From an uncultured Opitutus sp. (GTDB lineage: Bacteria; Verrucomicrobiota; Verrucomicrobiia; Opitutales; Opitutaceae): 64,000 nt of DNA. The notes beneath the pieces are model-generated. The model was given only the letters and a program-made list of their open reading frames with translations, was not told the origin of the DNA and did no database searches. Made by a program: the position numbers and the translations under genes. This document shows, one piece after another, positions 29,604 to 36,074 of this stretch. Each line of letters opens with the position of its first letter. Positions within the stretch are counted from its first letter, which is position 1. The DNA lies in NCBI GenBank assembly GCA_965652375.1, contig CBFGUO010000018.1, forward strand, positions 29,343-93,342, written 5' to 3'.

Positions 29604-31967
29604 TTAACCGGCGATTTCGAATCGGCCGTCCGGATCACTCGGCGGCAACGTGGTCAGGAAGTCGGTGACGCGGGGGTCATGGGCGGCGACCTGGTTGAGC
29701 ACCTCGACAATCTGGCCGAGCAGCTCCGTGTGATTCGCATCGCGCGCCAGCTCACCGAGCATGAGCCAGGAATCGAGGTCGGTCGTGTTGAGACGGATGG
29801 CGGTTTCGAGCGCGGTGATGGCGTCGGCCGGGTTGCCCGATTGGGCGAAGGCAGTGGCGAGTTCGCGCCAGATGGCGGCGCCGGCTTCGCCACTCTGAAC
29901 CACGCCGAGCAGATAGAGAGCGGCACGATCGTGGCGCTGCAGCGCGGCGCTGGCTCGGGCCATGATGAGCCGAGCGGTCTCGGATTGAGGCAAAACGCCG
30001 AGCACACGTGATGCCTGAGCGATTGCATCGTCCGGCAGGCCTGCTTCCAGGAGGCTCGCCGCGGTGGCGAGGGCGGTGTCATTATCCTCGTCCAGGCCGG
30101 CCGTCAGGATCTCACGGTTGGCGCGGAATCCCTGAGGACCGGCCTCGCTGAGCGTTTCGTAGGCGTGCATGACCAGGGCGGCGAACGCATCGCTGGCGGC
30201 GAGCGAGTCGAGGAACGCCGGAGTGCCGTTCATGGCAGTGCGGAGCCGTGTGACCAGGGCGGCGCGAGCGCTTTCGTCGGCGGCAAGCGCCGCAGCGCGA
30301 GTGAGGGCCTCGTCGGCGTTCTGAAAAACGCAGTCGTCGAGGTCCAGGGCGCGCAACAGGCCGGCGGTGCGTCGGGAGCGTCGGGTCGGGCCCTCCCGGG
30401 TCAGCACCGGCAGGCGAGCGTGCAGGGCCACCAGGGCGGCGTGATCATCGGCAACCGGATAGGTGTCGAGATAGAGGTCGGCGAGTTGCAGCAATCCGGC
30501 AAGATCGGTGAGCGAATCGGGCGTATCGGTCACGATATGCAGGCGTTCGGCGGTGACACCCACCGCGGCGAGTGCATCCAGAAAGCGTGACTCGAGCTGG
30601 TCGTTGGACAGCTCTTCGGCCATGGGCCGGAAAACGATGAGATGGGAGTCCGGCGTCGCGGCGAGCAGGCGCGCCCATTGCTCTCGAACTTCCGCGGTGA
30701 GGCAGGGCGTGGCAGCGGCGCTGGTGAACACCACGGCATCCGTCGGAATGTCGAGGGCGTCACGGCTCCAATGCGGTTCGCTCGGCTCGTTGAGTTCTGC
30801 GCCGAAGGTGTAGGCCGTGCCCGTGCCGGGCAACAAGGCGAGGCGTTCGCTGTAGTCCGCTCCGGGATCGTCGGTCCGCTCAGTTCGGTCACCGGAAATA
30901 AACAAATCGATTTCCGGCAGGCCGGTGGTGGCGGGGCAGAGGGGAGTGGCGACCTGCAGCGGCGCCACGCGATGGGAGGCGAGCACGGCGAGCTGATCGT
31001 TTGCGGTGCTGAGGTCGCCGGCGAACACCAGCACGTCGAGGCCGGCGAGTTGCAGCGTCGAAAGCTGCCCGGAGAGATCGGTGCCGAGTGGATTGTATTC
31101 CGAAGCCCGCAGGCGGCAGTGGGTCGCGAACTCGTCGTTGGCGTCTTCGAGCGGGAAGAGCGCGAGTTCGAAGCGCTGCGGATCGAGGTTTTCGAACAAC
31201 GGCAGCGTGGCAAAGGTCTCGAATGAAGCGCCGAAGGAGTGGGCGACGAATCCGAGACGCAGCGGCCGACCGAAGAGCGCGAAAGCCTCCGGCGGAATCG
31301 CATTGCGGGCGTCGGTGCTCAGGATGCGCTTCAGGATGCGACCGCGGGCTTCGGCATGTCGCCGCAGGTTGCCGGATCCCGCGATCAGCGGAGTGAGGTT
31401 GCCCACCTCGAGATAGGCGGTGACGGCGGCCCGAACTGCGGCGGAACCGCCGTTGCGCTCCACCCACTTGGCGAGCGACTCCAGACGAGGCAGGATGGCG
31501 TCGGCATAACGATCGGCGTCGCCTACCTTCACGAAGGCATGCGGAGGCGCGAAGGACCAGCGGGCATAGGTTCCCAGCAGCGCGTTGGGCACCGCGTCGA
31601 ACTCGGGGGCGTGGGTCCAGCGCCAGGCCGGAGCCAGCAGCATGCCGGCCACCAGCGAGCTCGCGCCGGAGCCTTGGCAGCGCTCGAGCAGGGCGGCTTC
31701 CTCGGAGTCGTGCGGCAGGTCATGCAGGGGGCTGGTGACTACGGCTTCCAGATTGCCGAGAATGGACGCCGCCAGCGGATCGCGCTCGGTTCCTTCGAGA
31801 ACGGCGCGGGCCAGGTCGAGCCGCGCGGTGCGGAACGTGGCGATGGCGGCTGGATCGGTGGGGGCGGACGCAGCGGCCAGGAGGGCGGCTTCAAAACGGG
31901 TGGTAAGCAGGGACGTGGCGCTGGGCGCAGAGACGACCTTGGAAGCGGCGGCGACGGGCAAAATCAT
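29604..31967 (-). CDS. Divergent GT41/SPY-like glycosyltransferase with permuted architecture (TPRs at the C-terminus)
   Basis: 787 aa. The middle region is homologous to the two neighbours (RLGFVAHSFG...LPLFENLDPQRFEL...; FTSAAATPCLTAEVREQWARLL...), but it has YPVADDHAALVALHARLPVL where they have [21 protein letters not shown]-like helices occupy the last ~170 aa. Confidence 0.7.
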   Translation of the reverse strand: MILPVAAASKVVSAPSATSLLTTRFEAALLAAASAPTDPAAIATFRTARLDLARAVLEGTERDPLAASILGNLEAVVTSPLHDLPHDSEEAALLERCQGSGASSLVAGMLLAPAWRWTHAPEFDAVPNALLGTYARWSFAPPHAFVKVGDADRYADAILPRLESLAKWVERNGGSAAVRAAVTAYLEVGNLTPLIAGSGNLRRHAEARGRILKRILSTDARNAIPPEAFALFGRPLRLGFVAHSFGASFETFATLPLFENLDPQRFELALFPLEDANDEFATHCRLRASEYNPLGTDLSGQLSTLQLAGLDVLVFAGDLSTANDQLAVLASHRVAPLQVATPLCPATTGLPEIDLFISGDRTERTDDPGADYSERLALLPGTGTAYTFGAELNEPSEPHWSRDALDIPTDAVVFTSAAATPCLTAEVREQWARLLAATPDSHLIVFRPMAEELSNDQLESRFLDALAAVGVTAERLHIVTDTPDSLTDLAGLLQLADLYLDTYPVADDHAALVALHARLPVLTREGPTRRSRRTAGLLRALDLDDCVFQNADEALTRAAALAADESARAALVTRLRTAMNGTPAFLDSLAASDAFAALVMHAYETLSEAGPQGFRANREILTAGLDEDNDTALATAASLLEAGLPDDAIAQASRVLGVLPQSETARLIMARASAALQRHDRAALYLLGVVQSGEAGAAIWRELATAFAQSGNPADAITALETAIRLNTTDLDSWLMLGELARDANHTELLGQIVEVLNQVAAHDPRVTDFLTTLPPSDPDGRFEIAG

Positions 31968-31980
31968 GGTGCGTGCCCGG

Positions 31981-34152: not shown

Positions 34153-34175
34153 GCGAGAGCGGGCGGGGGCGGGCC

Positions 34176-36074
34176 CTAAGCCGCGGCGGCGTGGGCTGGC
34201 AGCTCCGCGACTTCGCCGTGCCAACAGGCTTCGAGGGCGGTGGCGAATCGGCGGGCTTGACCGGCGTGATCGAGCAAGGGCGAGGCCTGCATGGCCGCGC
34301 GGAGCGTGCGCGTTTGCAGGTCGCGCAGGGCGTTGCGATCCGCCGCAAGTTGGCGGGCGAGGTCGATGTAGTCCTCTTCGCTGGCGGCGATCCACTCGGG
34401 GTGGCCGATTGCGGAAAGGAGGGAGGCGCCGACGCGGTTGGCGTGGCGTTGGCCGGCGAGGGTGACCACGGGGCGGCCCATCCACAGGGCTTCGCAGGTG
34501 GTGGTCGTGCCGTGGTAGGGCAGGGGATCGAGCGCGATGTCGATCCCGGCGTAGTCGGCGAGATGGCCGGCGGTGTCGGGCCGGCTGGGCAGAACCTCGA
34601 TGCGCGCGGGGTCGATGCCGGCCCGGCCGGCCGCGGCGCTTGCGGCCTCCGGCGACAGGCCGGGGCTCTTGAGCACGAGGCGGGAGCCGCGCACGGCCTT
34701 CAAAACCTTTGCCCAGACTTCGAGGGTGCGTGGGGAGACTTTGGCAAAGTTGTTGAAGGAGCCGAAGGTGAGGGGTCCGCCGGCGGCGCCCGGTCCGGGC
34801 TGCGGATCGCCGGCTTCGGGCGGCGGCTGGTAGGCCCAGGCGGTGGAGGCGAAGCGCACGCGGGTTTCGGTGGTGTGCGGGCAGGCCTGGTCGGCCGGAT
34901 CGGTCACCGCATCAACGAGGCGGTAGTCGATCGCGGGCACGCCGGTCGTGTCGGGGTAGCCCAGGTAGGTGAGTTGCACGGGGGCGATGCGTTCGGCGAA
35001 GGCGGCGAGACGATTGCCGCCGGTATGGCCGCCGAGTTCGACGGCGAGGTCGAGGGCGTCGGCGCGGGCGACTTTCACGAAGTCGGGTACGGAGAGTGAA
35101 ACGGTTTCACGCCAGACATCGGCCAGCTGCCGGAGCTCGGCGGAAATCTCGTCGGTGATCCCGTGATCGTGGTAGAGCGTGATTAGGAAGCGGCTGCGGT
35201 CGAGGTGGCGCAGGAGCGGCAGCATGAACCAGGCGACGGAGTGCCGGCGAAAATCGGCCGAGACGAAGCCGATGCGCAGGCGACGGCCGATGGAGGAGCG
35301 GGCGGTGAGCCGGTGCGCCTTGGGGAGGGCGGAGCGCCAGGCGGACAGGGCGGCGGCGTGCGCGGCATCGTCGCGCTCGTCGAGGTATTGCCGGCACAGC
35401 AGGCGGGCGCTGTGGGCGGCGAGGTGGCCGGGTTCGCGGCGCAGGTGTTGATCGTAATCCGCGAGCGCCTCGGGCAGGCGGTGCAGTTGCTGCAGGGCGA
35501 TGGCGCGGCCGTAACGAGCCCGCGGATACGGCTGCCGCGCACCGAGGGCGGCATCCTGCGCGGCGAGACCGGCGGCGGGTTCACCGAGCAGGCAGTGGGT
35601 TTGCCCGAGGTTGTAGGCGTACTGGCCGTTGGCCGGCTCGATGGCGGCGGCCCGGCGGTGGCATTCCAGGGCCTCGGCGATGGCGCCACGGGACTTGAGC
35701 ACGATGCCCAGATTGTCCCAGGCCTCCGCCATGGGTGGTTCGGAGTCCGTGAGGGCGCGCAGGCGTTGTTCGGCGGCTTCGAGGCGACCGGCGGCGCGCT
35801 CGGCCAGGGCGAGCCGGAGGAGGCAGACGCGGTCGCGCGGGCTGACGCGGTGCGCGGCGGAGAGCAGGCGCAGGGCCTGGTCGGAGTTGCCCTGCTGAAG
35901 GGCCACCAGGCCGCTGAGATGCAGGGCATCGAAGTTGCGCTGATCCAGACGCAGGACGGCTGCATAGCGGGCGGCGGCGTCGGCGAGTCGGCCGGCCCGG
36001 TGGAGGCGCAGGGCATCCTGCAGCAGCGAGGTCACGGAGGTTGGAGTAGGCACTATCACCCGGGTGATCGGCAC
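34176..36074 (-). CDS. TPR + GT41 (SPY/FlmG-like) protein glycosyltransferase, tandem paralogue
   Basis: Same architecture and a near-identical C-terminal GT region. The ORF-track start (GTG at 36074) lies inside the predicted sigma-28 -10 box, so the true start is probably an in-frame GTG at 36053 or 36035. Confidence 0.8.
   Translation of the reverse strand: [632 protein letters not shown]

What the first reader, a model, noticed from the sequence alone, without database searches (positions are those of the whole stretch)
29604..36074. Three FlmG-like TPR/GT41 proteins: two tandem paralogues plus a domain-permuted, motif-divergent third
Seen in the sequence: 34176-36074 and 32236-34152 encode N-terminal TPRs plus a C-terminal SPY/GT41-like domain with near-identical catalytic halves ([34 protein letters not shown]). 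The 29604-31967 product keeps homologous GT41 lobes, but its TPR-like helices sit at the C-terminus. It also has a ~230-aa unknown N-terminal region, and it reads YPVADDHAALVALHARLPVL where the others carry the nucleotide-binding GTTT segment. Established: in eukaryotic OGT-type GT41 enzymes this segment contacts the UDP phosphates, and the FlmG TPRs bind flagellin. Inference: there are two flagellins and two canonical paralogues, which could mean one transferase per flagellin or per sugar. The third protein could use a different donor (for example a CMP-nonulosonate), a different acceptor (chain extension), or be a non-catalytic scaffold.
Basis: partly seen in the sequence, partly recalled or inferred. 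Interest (0 to 1): 0.65.

Follow-up and report, generated by a model that had tools for sequence, protein, structure and literature searches.

The report
Flagellar GT41 glycosyltransferases plus pseudo-enzyme partner
Next to the flagellin genes of a soil Opitutaceae bacterium lie two genuine SPINDLY/OGT-type protein glycosyltransferases and a third, catalytically stripped relative that belongs to a small undescribed protein family and probably works as an adaptor for a neighbouring sugar-adding enzyme rather than as an enzyme itself.

Summary
The three ORFs exist exactly as described. Two (632 and 638 aa) are true SPY/OGT-type GT41 enzymes with N-terminal TPRs and every tested catalytic residue. 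They are old paralogues, each with its own orthologue in Actomonas aquatica. "FlmG-like" holds only for architecture: authentic C. crescentus FlmG, fetched and tested here, has no GT41 domain and no significant similarity in its catalytic half.

The third protein (787 aa) keeps both GT41 lobes. It has lost K665, H495, Y744, G746 and T747-T749 (SPY numbering), including two residues whose mutation kills SPY. It is not a domain permutation: it has a family-specific helical N-domain, the GT41-like core, and extra C-terminal TPRs. It belongs to a small uncharacterised family (about 145 representatives; named members Opitutaceae). That family always sits beside the same HDOD/kinase genes, heads the variable glycan cassette, and is recurrently fused to GT4 enzymes orthologous to the window's GT4.

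Most family members keep the Lys and conserved lobes. The window's copy belongs to a Lys-less class with an acidic pocket and relaxed lobe conservation. The best reading is a non-catalytic adaptor for GT4/GT2, acting alongside the two GT41 enzymes on flagellin. None of this has experimental support.

The parts
34176..36074 (-). GT41_up: canonical SPY/OGT-type protein O-glycosyltransferase, 632 aa, N-terminal TPRs plus a GT41 catalytic domain
   Evidence: PF13844 E=2.8e-42. Arabidopsis SPY 7y4i E=1.6e-105 over aa 112-617. 78% identical to Actomonas orthologue Acto_1. Keeps the D/H/S, ELxGHT, FNNxAK, stacking His and [10 protein letters not shown] motifs.
32236..34152 (-). GT41_mid: second canonical GT41, 638 aa, an old paralogue of GT41_up (48% identity)
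   Evidence: PF13844 E=4.4e-35. BLASTP to GT41_up 48% over 617 aa. 72% identical to Actomonas Acto_2 but 45-48% to the other paralogue lineage. The 23-nt gap to GT41_up suggests one transcription unit.
29604..31967 (-). Third protein, 787 aa: family-specific N-domain, then a GT41-like GT-B core lacking catalytic residues, then C-terminal TPRs. Proposed pseudo-glycosyltransferase adaptor.
   Evidence: SPY E=3.4e-19 over aa 234-584. hhalign against the canonical profile, probability 99.95%. AF2 pLDDT 92.2, pTM 0.91. Foldseek top hits are all GT41 structures. Family and residue analysis.
31320..31919 (-). N-terminal helical domain of the third protein (aa 17-216)
   Evidence: All-helical, high pLDDT. 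Only 145 of 1.84 billion representatives match it, nearly all with the same architecture and none a generic TPR protein. It is the best-conserved part between P0001 and P0002 (56%).
30213..31274 (-). GT41-like N- and C-lobes of the third protein (aa 232-585)
   Evidence: Two Rossmann lobes in the model. Aligned to SPY 481-823 and to canonical aa 256-620.
30702..30704 (-). Codon for Cys422, at the position of the essential GT41 Lys (SPY K665, given as OGT K842 from memory)
   Evidence: Alignments. K665 mutation abolishes SPY activity (PMC9715652).
30402..30461 (-). Degenerate phosphate-loop segment YPVADDHAALVALHARLPVL (aa 503-522), replacing [19 protein letters not shown]
   Evidence: Y744->V, G746->D, T747->D, T748->H, T749->A, E752->V.
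29652..30092 (-). C-terminal TPR domain of the third protein (aa 626-772)
   Evidence: Pfam TPR_14/TPR_16 and related hits at 626-744. Paired helices at 629-772 in the model.
28683..29579 (-). GT2 (Glyco_transf_7C-type), 24 nt downstream of the third gene
   Evidence: Pfam. Orthologues directly follow Lys-less thirds in L006 (46%) and L007 (57%). A DAD motif is present.
27466..28632 (-). GT4 glycosyltransferase, the inferred catalytic partner of the third protein
   Evidence: Pfam. 55% identical (E=2e-136) to the GT4 domain fused to the third-family protein P0019. 50-53% identical to the GT4 in L002 and L007. EX7E motif intact.
31968..32235 (-). Intergenic region ahead of the third gene, holding two copies of the palindrome TTGTCACC-N5-GGTGACAA (32152-32172, 32195-32215) and a sigma54-like TGGCAC-N5-ATGC (31983-31997)
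   Evidence: The palindrome core recurs in the equivalent Actomonas gap.
9769..11652 (+). Two flagellin genes (9769-10584 and 10837-11652), the presumed acceptors
   Evidence: Flagellin_N/C Pfam hits. 80% identical to each other, with differences concentrated in the Ser/Thr-rich central part.
18698..27446 (-). Pse-type nonulosonate pathway (PseB, C, F, G, H, I) with acyl-tailoring genes, in the same operon-like run as third-GT2-GT4
   Evidence: Pfam. Short gaps between genes (note).
15889..17079 (-). Orphan 396-aa protein with a divergent GT-B fold and a helical tail, an alternative candidate nonulosonate transferase
   Evidence: No Pfam hit. Conserved family of 'hypothetical' proteins; the one named member is a Lacunisphaera sp. 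MAG. AF2 pLDDT 92.6. Weak GT-B Foldseek matches.

Best explanation
The window comes from a rhizosphere Opitutaceae bacterium (Verrucomicrobiota) related to Actomonas. It carries a flagellar-locus protein glycosylation module with two layers.

(1) Two canonical SPY/OGT-type GT41 enzymes. They are ancient paralogues that differ most in their TPR domains. They most likely O-glycosylate Ser/Thr of the flagellins in the cytoplasm, using the TPRs to hold the acceptor and a nucleoside-diphosphate sugar as donor. The SPY-type Tyr gate points to a small sugar. Their conservation across genomes with different sugar cassettes argues that this sugar is not the island-specific pseudaminic acid.

(2) The third protein. 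It heads the variable, glycan-specific operon (third-GT2-GT4-pse genes). It belongs to an undescribed family made of a private helical N-domain, a GT41-like GT-B core and C-terminal TPRs, and this family works together with GT4-type transferases. In most family members the core looks catalytically competent, though remodelled. The window's copy has lost the essential Lys and the phosphate loop and carries acidic residues in the pocket. It therefore most likely acts as a non-catalytic adaptor (a pseudo-glycosyltransferase) that uses its TPRs and N-domain to bring GT4, and perhaps GT2, to the flagellin.

Shown here: the homologies, the residue losses, the fold, the synteny, the gene fusions and the conservation patterns. 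Inferred: flagellin as substrate, the order of steps, the donor sugars and the adaptor role.
For: GT41 identity.

Canonical pair: orthologous pairs at 78% and 72% against 45-48% for cross-pairs. TPRs 39% identical against 55-58% for the lobes. All SPY-defined residues kept, including Tyr at Y744. The orthologues persist in Actomonas, where the cassette is heptose-type, and in L003, where there is no sugar cassette.

Third protein: H495->A, N661->A, K665->C, H728->L, Y744->V, G746->D, T748->H. In SPY, K665 and H495 mutants are dead and Y744 and T748 mutants are strongly impaired (PMC9715652). The model is confident.

Family: about 145 representatives share the N-domain. In all ten loci examined the gene is in the same position, and in nine of them it is followed by or fused to a GT4 or Glyco_trans_1_2 enzyme. 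The fused GT4 is 55% identical to the window's GT4, and further fusions exist.

Co-divergence: against Actomonas the third is 45% and GT4 50% identical, while the flanking genes are 72-88%.

Constraint: class I lobes are 65-70% identical against 44% for the N-domain and TPRs. In P0001 against P0002 the order inverts, 42-44% against 56-57%.

Lys-less members are the only GT41-like protein in four loci.

Precedents for adaptor partners: GlfM-Maf-2, the C-terminal TPR of Maf-1 and GtfA/GtfB.

RNA contigs overlap the gene.
Against: There is no experimental data for any member.

The Lys-less class shows non-random acidic substitutions (G570->D/E in 14 of 15, G746->D in 10 of 15), which could mean a new ligand or new chemistry rather than loss of function.

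The window's flagellins lie about 18 kb from the trio, and GT41 enzymes elsewhere modify many kinds of protein.

The Tyr-gate rule for donor size is a proposal from one structural paper.

The NJ tree cannot distinguish in-situ decay from cassette replacement.

The RNA evidence consists of short unstranded contigs and could be DNA carry-over.

The overlay of the N-domain on GT41 TPRs is inferred from Foldseek alignment lengths, not from a residue-level alignment. The profile comparison did not align that region.
Confidence: 0.55

Rival explanations
1. The two canonical proteins are FlmG-type flagellin sialyltransferases that put pseudaminic acid directly on flagellin, one enzyme per flagellin or per sugar. 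The third is a related enzyme with a different donor or acceptor.
For: The TPR plus GT-B architecture mirrors FlmG, whose TPR binds flagellin (PMC7591256). A complete Pse pathway and two flagellins are in the island, and there is no Maf. The TPR halves of the paralogues have diverged most.
Against: Real FlmG has no GT41 domain and shows no significant similarity in its catalytic half. Known GT41 donors are NDP-sugars; in SPY, K665 and the TTT loop (T748) contact the GDP phosphates and the alpha-phosphate is the proposed catalytic base. The Tyr gate disfavours even GlcNAc. Orthologues 72-84% identical sit next to a heptose-type cassette in Actomonas. More distant pairs sit in a locus with no sugar cassette. 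The number of canonical GT41s does not follow the number of flagellins (L006: two flagellins, no GT41).
Confidence: 0.15
2. The Lys-less third protein is still an enzyme or a specific ligand binder. Its pocket has been retooled (Asp/Glu at two glycine positions, and Asp-Asp-His in the window's copy) for a CMP-activated ulosonic acid (Pse or Kdo) or for the already glycosylated acceptor.
For: The acidic substitutions are conserved across the class. DDHA is shared with P0002. Four of seven Lys-less loci are linked to ulosonic-acid chemistry: Pse in the window, and Capsule_synth/KpsC-S-type giants in L006, L008 and L011. None of the three Lys-containing loci is.
Against: Apart from the two acidic positions, pocket residues vary within the class; the Lys position reads A, R, Q, C, D or P. 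Lobe conservation is relaxed. The locus correlation rests on small numbers and is not significant. The His occurs only in P0001 and P0002. An orphan GT-B protein in the island could be the Pse transferase.
Confidence: 0.13
3. The GT41 proteins, and possibly the third, do not act on flagellin. Like OGT and SPY they would modify other cytoplasmic proteins, for example the adjacent HDOD or PAS-kinase signalling proteins, and their position near the flagellar genes would be regulatory or coincidental.
For: The constant neighbours in all loci are HDOD and a PAS histidine kinase, not flagellin. L008 and L011 show no flagellin within about 10 kb. The canonical family is large across Opitutaceae.
Against: Where long contigs are available, flagellins, FliD and FliS lie directly after the cassette (L003, L006 and the window). 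The third gene heads an operon of sugar-building genes typical of flagellin glycosylation islands. SPY-family GT41 genes have been catalogued before in such islands (PMC4875605).
Confidence: 0.12
4. The third gene is a decaying relic with no function.
For: Catalytic residues are lost and its divergence is high relative to its neighbours.
Against: The 787-codon frame is intact, with coding-type GC3. The fold prediction is very confident. The N-domain and connecting helix are conserved with P0002. Lys-less members are retained at the same position in seven loci. RNA contigs match the gene.
Confidence: 0.05

Closest known systems
SPINDLY (plant/Toxoplasma protein O-fucosyltransferase) and OGT: CAZy family GT41
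   Same: The two canonical proteins share the whole architecture (N-terminal TPRs, connector, N-Cat and C-Cat). They keep every residue tested in SPY (D491/H495/S496, E567-G-H-T, N661, K665, H728, Y744, TTTT, E752). SPY is their best PDB match at E about 1e-105. The third protein has the same two-lobe fold.
   Different: These proteins are bacterial and encoded in a flagellar glycosylation island. The donor and acceptors are unknown. The third lacks the catalytic Lys, His495 and the phosphate loop, and has a private N-domain and C-terminal TPRs.
FlmG (Caulobacter/Brevundimonas flagellin Pse/Leg transferase)
   Same: It has an N-terminal TPR plus a C-terminal GT-B domain, it is cytoplasmic, and it is encoded with flagellin and nonulosonate genes. 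Its TPR binds flagellin.
   Different: The FlmG catalytic domain is not GT41: it has no PF13844 hit, and BLASTP similarity to the window proteins is restricted to the TPRs. FlmG is reported as confined to Caulobacterales. The window proteins are analogous to it, not homologous, in the catalytic half.
SPY-family GT41 genes in enterobacterial flagellin glycosylation islands (De Maayer & Cowan 2016, in silico)
   Same: These are GT41/COG3914 genes placed between flagellar genes, together with sugar-tailoring genes.
   Different: Most of those are fused to methyltransferases. No tandem paralogue pair and no Lys-less partner family was described. None has been characterised experimentally in that paper.
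GtfA/GtfB of serine-rich-repeat adhesin glycosylation; GlfM-Maf-2 of Shewanella flagellin
   Same: In each, an active protein O-glycosyltransferase depends on a non-catalytic partner that engages the acceptor. GtfB is a GT-like chaperone and GlfM a bridging factor. This is the mechanism proposed here for the third protein with GT4.
   Different: There is no sequence relationship. GtfB carries DUF1975 and pairs with a GT4-type paralogue. GlfM is an 89-residue four-helix bundle. Here the proposed adaptor is a GT41-derived 787-aa protein with TPRs.
Maf-1 (MAF_flag10 flagellin sialyltransferase with C-terminal TPR)
   Same: Its C-terminal TPR domain is used for flagellin recognition, which shows that TPR placement after the catalytic domain works in flagellin glycosylation.
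   Different: Maf has a GT-A-type MAF_flag10 domain. No such domain is present anywhere in the window's island.

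Membership tests
GT41 (SPY/OGT; Pfam PF13844) | Significant match to the GT41 profile and to solved GT41 enzymes over both catalytic lobes | tested here: met
   PF13844 E=2.8e-42, 4.4e-35 and 1.4e-7. 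phmmer to SPY E=1.6e-105 and 3.4e-19 over aa 234-584. Foldseek top 50 hits for the third protein are all GT41 structures.
GT41 (SPY/OGT; Pfam PF13844) | Essential phosphate-binding Lys (SPY K665; OGT K842 from memory) | tested here: met
   Met for the two canonical proteins (FNNFAK and FNALTK). NOT met for the third protein, which has Cys422. It is therefore a GT41 homologue but should not be filed as a GT41 enzyme.
GT41 (SPY/OGT; Pfam PF13844) | Gly-Thr-Thr-Thr phosphate loop, gate residue (SPY Y744) and His495 | tested here: not met
   This row refers to the third protein: Y744->V, G746->D, T747->D, T748->H, T749->A, H495->A. Both canonical proteins meet the feature ([10 protein letters not shown] and RRHSV).
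GT41 (SPY/OGT; Pfam PF13844) | N-terminal TPR superhelix feeding the active site | tested here: inconclusive
   Clear in the two canonical proteins. In the third, the N-terminal 17-216 is helical and appears to overlay the TPR region of XcOGT and OGT, judging from Foldseek alignment lengths. It has no TPR profile hit, is not aligned by hhalign, and matches only its own family.
FlmG-class flagellin glycosyltransferases | Catalytic (C-terminal GT-B) domain homologous to C. crescentus FlmG | tested here: not met
   FlmG was fetched. It has no PF13844 hit at E<=0.1. BLASTP to GT41_up matches only the TPRs at E=4e-5, and the C-lobe gives E=0.066. Nothing matches the third protein.
FlmG-class flagellin glycosylation systems | Bipartite architecture of N-terminal TPR plus C-terminal GT-B, encoded with flagellin and Pse/Leg genes | tested here: met
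   Met for the two canonical proteins as an analogy of architecture and context only.
FlmG-class flagellin glycosyltransferases | Transfers Pse or Leg to flagellin; the TPR binds flagellin | not testable with these tools
   This needs genetics, two-hybrid assays and mass spectrometry.
Maf flagellin glycosyltransferases | MAF_flag10 (PF01973) domain | tested here: not met
   No such hit in any island ORF scanned against Pfam.
Non-catalytic glycosyltransferase partners (GtfB-like or GlfM-like adaptors): functional class, not a sequence family | Lacks catalytic residues yet is conserved, and is genetically coupled to an active glycosyltransferase | tested here: met
   Residue loss. Retained fold and conserved N-domain. 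Gene fusions and adjacency with GT4 and Glyco_trans_1_2 enzymes. Physical interaction and acceptor binding were not testable.

The most novel reading that the evidence does not exclude
The Lys-less, acidic-pocket class of this family, including the window's protein with its Asp-Asp-His loop, is not dead. It would be a GT41-fold protein retooled to bind or transfer CMP-activated ulosonic acids (pseudaminic acid here, Kdo-type sugars elsewhere). That would make it the first GT41-derived nonulosonate transferase or receptor and a third mechanistic class of flagellin sialylation enzyme beside Maf and FlmG.
Probability: 0.12. Interest if true: 0.8.

Novelty: new variant of a known kind. Interest (0 to 1): 0.55.

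Why it matters
The papers read here discuss two classes of flagellin nonulosonate (Pse/Leg) transferase, Maf and FlmG, and FlmG is reported as confined to Caulobacterales. This locus points to a further, GT41-based system in Verrucomicrobia with a clear division of labour. It has a conserved pair of SPY-type enzymes and a variable cassette headed by a GT41-derived protein, which is either a remodelled enzyme (most relatives) or, as here, apparently a pseudo-enzyme adaptor.

If confirmed, it would be, to my knowledge, the first GT41 pseudo-glycosyltransferase. It would also be a natural series of active, inactive and fused forms in which to study how acceptor recognition and catalysis are split between polypeptides. 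That question matters for engineering cytoplasmic protein glycosylation. Finally, it would give bacterial SPY-like enzymes, whose substrates are mostly unknown, a concrete candidate substrate.

Tried and rejected
1. FlmG homology. I tested this directly by fetching flmG through the published primer NK-74. It is rejected for the catalytic domain.

2. True domain permutation. The C-terminal TPRs show no significant similarity to the paralogues' N-terminal TPRs. The N-terminus is a folded helical domain, so I read the TPRs as an addition, not a permutation. hhalign could not align the N-domain, so its TPR-like nature rests on Foldseek coverage alone.

3. GT2 as an obligatory companion of Lys-less thirds. 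It is 3 of 7 against 0 of 3 loci, too weak to use.

4. One GT41 per flagellin. Contradicted by L006.

5. A sigma54 promoter upstream of the third gene. A one-mismatch site exists, but the window-wide count is at chance level.

6. Rfam families. None in the window.

7. The first palindrome search failed because I used the wrong spacer length. It was corrected.

8. P0008 (Opitutus sp. ER46) context. Not on record.

9. The unknown 501-aa protein next to the fusion gene in L003. It shares only a short C-terminal tail with window proteins.

10. RNA evidence. Only short unstranded contigs, so weak.

Full report
**Observation**

GC3 supports the frames of 34176-36074 and 29604-31967; the ORF holding 32236-34152 did not pass the filter, so its frame rests on homology. 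Pfam places all three in GT41 (PF13844). The E-values are 2.8e-42 and 4.4e-35 for the 632- and 638-aa proteins. For the 787-aa protein the hit is 1.4e-7 (30.6 bits against a cutoff of 25) and covers only the C-lobe. TPR profiles hit the N-termini of the first two proteins and aa 626-744 of the third.

The quoted motif is identical in the two paralogues, and YPVADDHAALVALHARLPVL lies at the aligned position in the third. The surroundings are as stated. There are two 271-aa flagellins (80% identical), FliD, FliS and a sigma54 activator. There is a complete Pse-type pathway (PseB/C/F/G/H/I) with extra acyl-tailoring, deacetylase and methyltransferase genes, plus two GT4 and one GT2. One wording correction: the catalytic halves are 55-58% identical overall, and only the motif block is near-identical.

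**Are they FlmG-like?**

The FlmG papers describe FlmG only as an N-terminal TPR plus a C-terminal GT-B domain (PMC7591256; bioRxiv 10.1101/2022.03.25.485807). One of them states that FlmG is confined to Caulobacterales (bioRxiv 10.1101/2023.12.03.569772).

I took the flmG primer NK-74 from the eLife supplement and used it to fetch the gene from Caulobacter vibrioides. The ORF is 596 aa, the published length. FlmG has no PF13844 hit even at E<=0.1. Its BLASTP similarity to the window's GT41_up is limited to the TPRs (E=4e-5), with only a generic 54-residue C-lobe match at E=0.066. It does not match the third protein. Its PDB hits all come through TPRs.

By contrast, the window's canonical proteins match Arabidopsis SPINDLY at E=1.6e-105 across TPRs and both lobes. 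They are therefore SPY/OGT-type GT41 enzymes, analogous to FlmG in layout and context but not homologous in the catalytic domain. SPY-family GT41 genes in flagellin glycosylation islands have been catalogued before, in silico, in Enterobacteriaceae (PMC4875605).

**The canonical pair**

The same trio lies beside the same HDOD and PAS-kinase genes in Actomonas aquatica (L002) and in a metagenomic contig (L003). GT41_up is 78% identical to the first Actomonas gene and GT41_mid 72% to the second, while cross-comparisons give 45-48%. The duplication is therefore old and both copies are maintained.

Between the paralogues, the TPR region is the most divergent part (39%, against 55% and 58% for the two lobes). 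That fits different acceptor sites or proteins. All six sequences keep the residues defined experimentally in SPY (PMC9715652): D491/H495/S496, E567-x-x-G-H-T, N661, K665, the stacking His728, and PY(H)GTTTTCE. They carry Tyr at the Y744 position. The SPY paper proposes that this residue sets pocket size and excludes GlcNAc.

Two further facts bear on the donor. The orthologues persist next to a heptose-type cassette in Actomonas (SIS, HldE-like, HAD, epimerase). Related pairs persist in a locus with no sugar cassette at all (L003). From this I infer that these enzymes use a small, commonly available NDP-sugar rather than the island-specific CMP-pseudaminic acid. This is inference, not demonstration.

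The family is large, with at least 785 members at E<=1e-30. Its named members are all from Opitutaceae or Opitutae.

**The third protein: structure and active site**

phmmer aligns aa 234-584 to SPY 481-823 (E=3.4e-19). hhalign aligns the family profile to the canonical profile over aa 225-605 with 99.95% probability. An AlphaFold2 model built on the family alignment is confident (pLDDT 92.2, pTM 0.91). It shows helices at 17-216, two Rossmann lobes at 236-580, a long helix at 588-616 and TPR-like helix pairs at 629-772.

The 50 Foldseek PDB hits listed are all GT41 structures (XcOGT, TtOGT, SPY, OGT; E down to 1e-20). The alignments span 590-750 columns and cover essentially the whole of targets whose TPRs are N-terminal. 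I take this to mean the N-terminal domain lies where GT41 enzymes carry their TPRs. The protein is therefore not a permuted GT41 but a GT41-like protein with additional C-terminal TPRs.

That N-domain is not a recognisable TPR by sequence. Used alone as a probe against 1.84 billion representatives, it finds only 145 proteins (76 at E<=1e-10). Nearly all are 740-800 aa with the domain at the N-terminus, and no generic TPR proteins appear.

The window protein maps onto SPY's tested residues as follows:

- H495->A and K665->C. In SPY, mutating either residue abolishes activity.
- Y744->V and T748->H. Mutants at these positions are strongly impaired in SPY.
- N661->A and H728->L, both GDP contacts.
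- G746->D, T747->D, T749->A and E752->V.
- ELxGHT->FAGDLS.
- Only S496 is retained.

**The family and its two states**

A word-indexed search found about 50 full-length relatives. The named ones are Actomonas aquatica, Opitutus sp. and Opitutaceae MAGs. In a 42-sequence alignment, 27 sequences form a tight clade. This clade keeps Lys665, an aromatic at Y744, Gly746, Asn/Ser at T748/T749 and Asp at E752, and it has its own invariant residues (Gln at S496, Asn at G570, Phe at E567). That is a remodelled but strongly constrained site, probably active.

The other 15, including the window's protein and its nearest relative P0002 (48% identity), lack the Lys. They are not random, however. 14 of 15 have Asp or Glu at the G570 position and 10 of 15 have Asp at the G746 position.

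Domain-wise conservation agrees with this split. In the Lys class the lobes are the best-conserved parts (70% and 65%, against 44% for the N-domain and C-TPR). Between the window's protein and P0002 the order inverts (lobes 44% and 42%, N-domain 56%, connecting helix 57%).

Genomes closely related to the window's carry Lys-class thirds. Their canonical GT41s are 78-84% identical to the window's and lie on the same contigs as P0005, P0006 and P0007. The window's copy therefore either diverged fast or arrived with a swapped cassette. The NJ tree cannot decide between these.

**Partners and context**

Against Actomonas, the conserved flank is 86-88% identical (kinase, HDOD) and the canonical GT41s are 72-78%. 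The third protein (45%) and the GT4 (50%) fall together, and the GT2 is not orthologous. The variable, glycan-specific part of the island thus begins at the third gene. That gene heads a tightly packed run, third-GT2-GT4-pseB... (gaps of 24, 50 and 19 nt), separated by 268 nt from the GT41 pair.

At least nine family members in the first search are about 1,145-aa fusions to a C-terminal GT4. That GT4 domain is 55% identical (E=2e-136) to the window's stand-alone GT4 at 27466-28632. Other fusions add Glyco_trans_1_2, GT4, GT2 or methyltransferase modules.

I examined ten loci (window, L002, L003/L004, L005-L011). The findings are:

- In every locus the third gene lies beside the HDOD/PAS-kinase genes.
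- In nine of ten it is followed within two genes by, or fused to, a GT4 or Glyco_trans_1_2 enzyme.
- The number of canonical GT41 genes varies: two in the window, L002 and L003; one in L007 and L009; at least one in L005; none in L006, L008, L010 and L011.
- In the four loci with no canonical GT41, a Lys-less third is the only GT41-like protein. It precedes giant Glyco_trans_1_2 proteins, with TPRs in L006, L010 and L011 and a Capsule_synth domain in L006, L008 and L011.
- Flagellins, FliD and FliS follow the cassette directly in L003 and L006.
- L006 has two flagellins and no canonical GT41, which argues against a one-enzyme-per-flagellin rule.

**Mechanism proposed**

I propose that the two SPY-type enzymes prime flagellin Ser/Thr. 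I propose that the third protein, which cannot carry out GT41 chemistry, serves as an adaptor for the GT4 and possibly the GT2. It would contribute acceptor or partner binding through its C-terminal TPRs and private N-domain.

Precedents exist:

- Maf-1 uses a C-terminal TPR to bind flagellin.
- Maf-2 needs the bridging factor GlfM.
- GtfA needs the non-catalytic, acceptor-binding GtfB (PMC6973325).

The window's GT4 keeps its EX7E motif and the GT2 a DxD motif, so catalysis can reside there. Short RNA contigs from a rhizosphere metatranscriptome and two other runs listed as RNA (the kind of one, X14, is only guessed) match the third gene at 99% or more. This is weak support for expression.

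**Rivals**

(a) FlmG-style direct Pse transfer by the canonical enzymes. This is disfavoured for the reasons given above (0.15).

(b) A retooled pocket for CMP-ulosonic acids. The conserved acidic residues and the Asp-Asp-His loop are suggestive. So is the fact that four of seven Lys-less loci involve Pse or Kdo-type (Capsule_synth) chemistry, against none of the three Lys-containing loci. But the numbers are small. The island also contains an orphan 396-aa protein of a conserved 'hypothetical' family. Its confident model (pLDDT 92.6) has a divergent GT-B fold (weak Foldseek matches to 2-epimerases, TagF, WaaA, a CMP-bound capsule polymerase and GtfA/SdgB), so it could be the Pse transferase (0.13).

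(c) Non-flagellar targets, in the manner of OGT and SPY (0.12).

(d) A functionless relic (0.05).

**Novelty and verdict**

The canonical pair are new members of a known kind. The third protein belongs to a small family that carries only generic or 'hypothetical' names in the databases searched and that none of the papers I read describes. Its window copy would be, to my knowledge, the first GT41-derived pseudo-glycosyltransferase. Taken together this is a new variant of a known kind, of moderate interest and entirely in silico.

Noticed in passing
window 32152-32172 and 32195-32215; L002 9160-9717: A perfect palindrome, TTGTCACC-N5-GGTGACAA, occurs twice 43 bp apart in the gap between GT41_mid and the third gene, and nowhere else in the 64 kb (0 of 100 shuffles reach two copies). 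Its core recurs three times in the equivalent Actomonas gap, inside a roughly 270-bp tandem repeat. It may be an operator or a repeat element at the boundary between the conserved and variable parts of the island.
   Followed up: partly
window 15889-17079 (-): A 396-aa protein with no Pfam domain belongs to a conserved family of 'hypothetical' proteins, some fused to FkbM methyltransferases or TPRs; the one named member is a Lacunisphaera sp. MAG. A confident AF2 model shows a divergent GT-B fold plus a C-terminal helical bundle. It is a candidate for the missing pseudaminic-acid transferase.
   Followed up: partly
window 15889-17235 (-) aa 406-447; window 13393-14904 (-) aa ~437-480; L003 13438-14943 aa 439-480: Three otherwise unrelated island proteins share a roughly 40-residue C-terminal helical tail (pattern L..LDP..A..LL..A..LA). 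BLASTP gives E=5e-4 for one pair and 0.26 for another. It could be a common docking tail, for example a TPR ligand.
   Followed up: no
window 31983-31997 (-): A sigma54-type -24/-12 element with one mismatch (TGGCAC-N5-ATGC) ends 16 nt before the third gene's ATG, and a sigma54 activator is encoded at 3557-5278. The window-wide frequency of such sites is at chance level.
   Followed up: partly
window 18021-22561 (-) and 14932-18002 (-): The Pse pathway is accompanied by an AMP-binding ligase, an SDR, a formyltransferase-like protein, a PIG-L-type deacetylase and two methyltransferases. This suggests a heavily tailored (re-acylated, methylated) nonulosonate.
   Followed up: no
L002 12439-17805 (Actomonas aquatica CP139781.1): At the position of the window's Pse genes, Actomonas carries SIS, an HldE-like kinase/nucleotidyltransferase, a HAD phosphatase and epimerases, that is, a heptose-nucleotide pathway. 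The cassette is exchanged between close relatives, much as at O-antigen loci.
   Followed up: partly
L006 17906-19423: In a locus with no canonical GT41, a 505-aa TPR-only protein next to the flagellins has TPRs 33% identical (E=1e-15) to those of GT41_mid. It may be a stand-alone acceptor-binding module.
   Followed up: no
window 36113-39039 (+), 42594-46361: An HDOD protein and a PAS-histidine kinase-receiver hybrid are divergently transcribed from the GT41 pair in every locus examined. A second HDOD gene follows a CheW/CheA pair in the window. The constant linkage suggests regulatory coupling with the glycosylation module.
   Followed up: no
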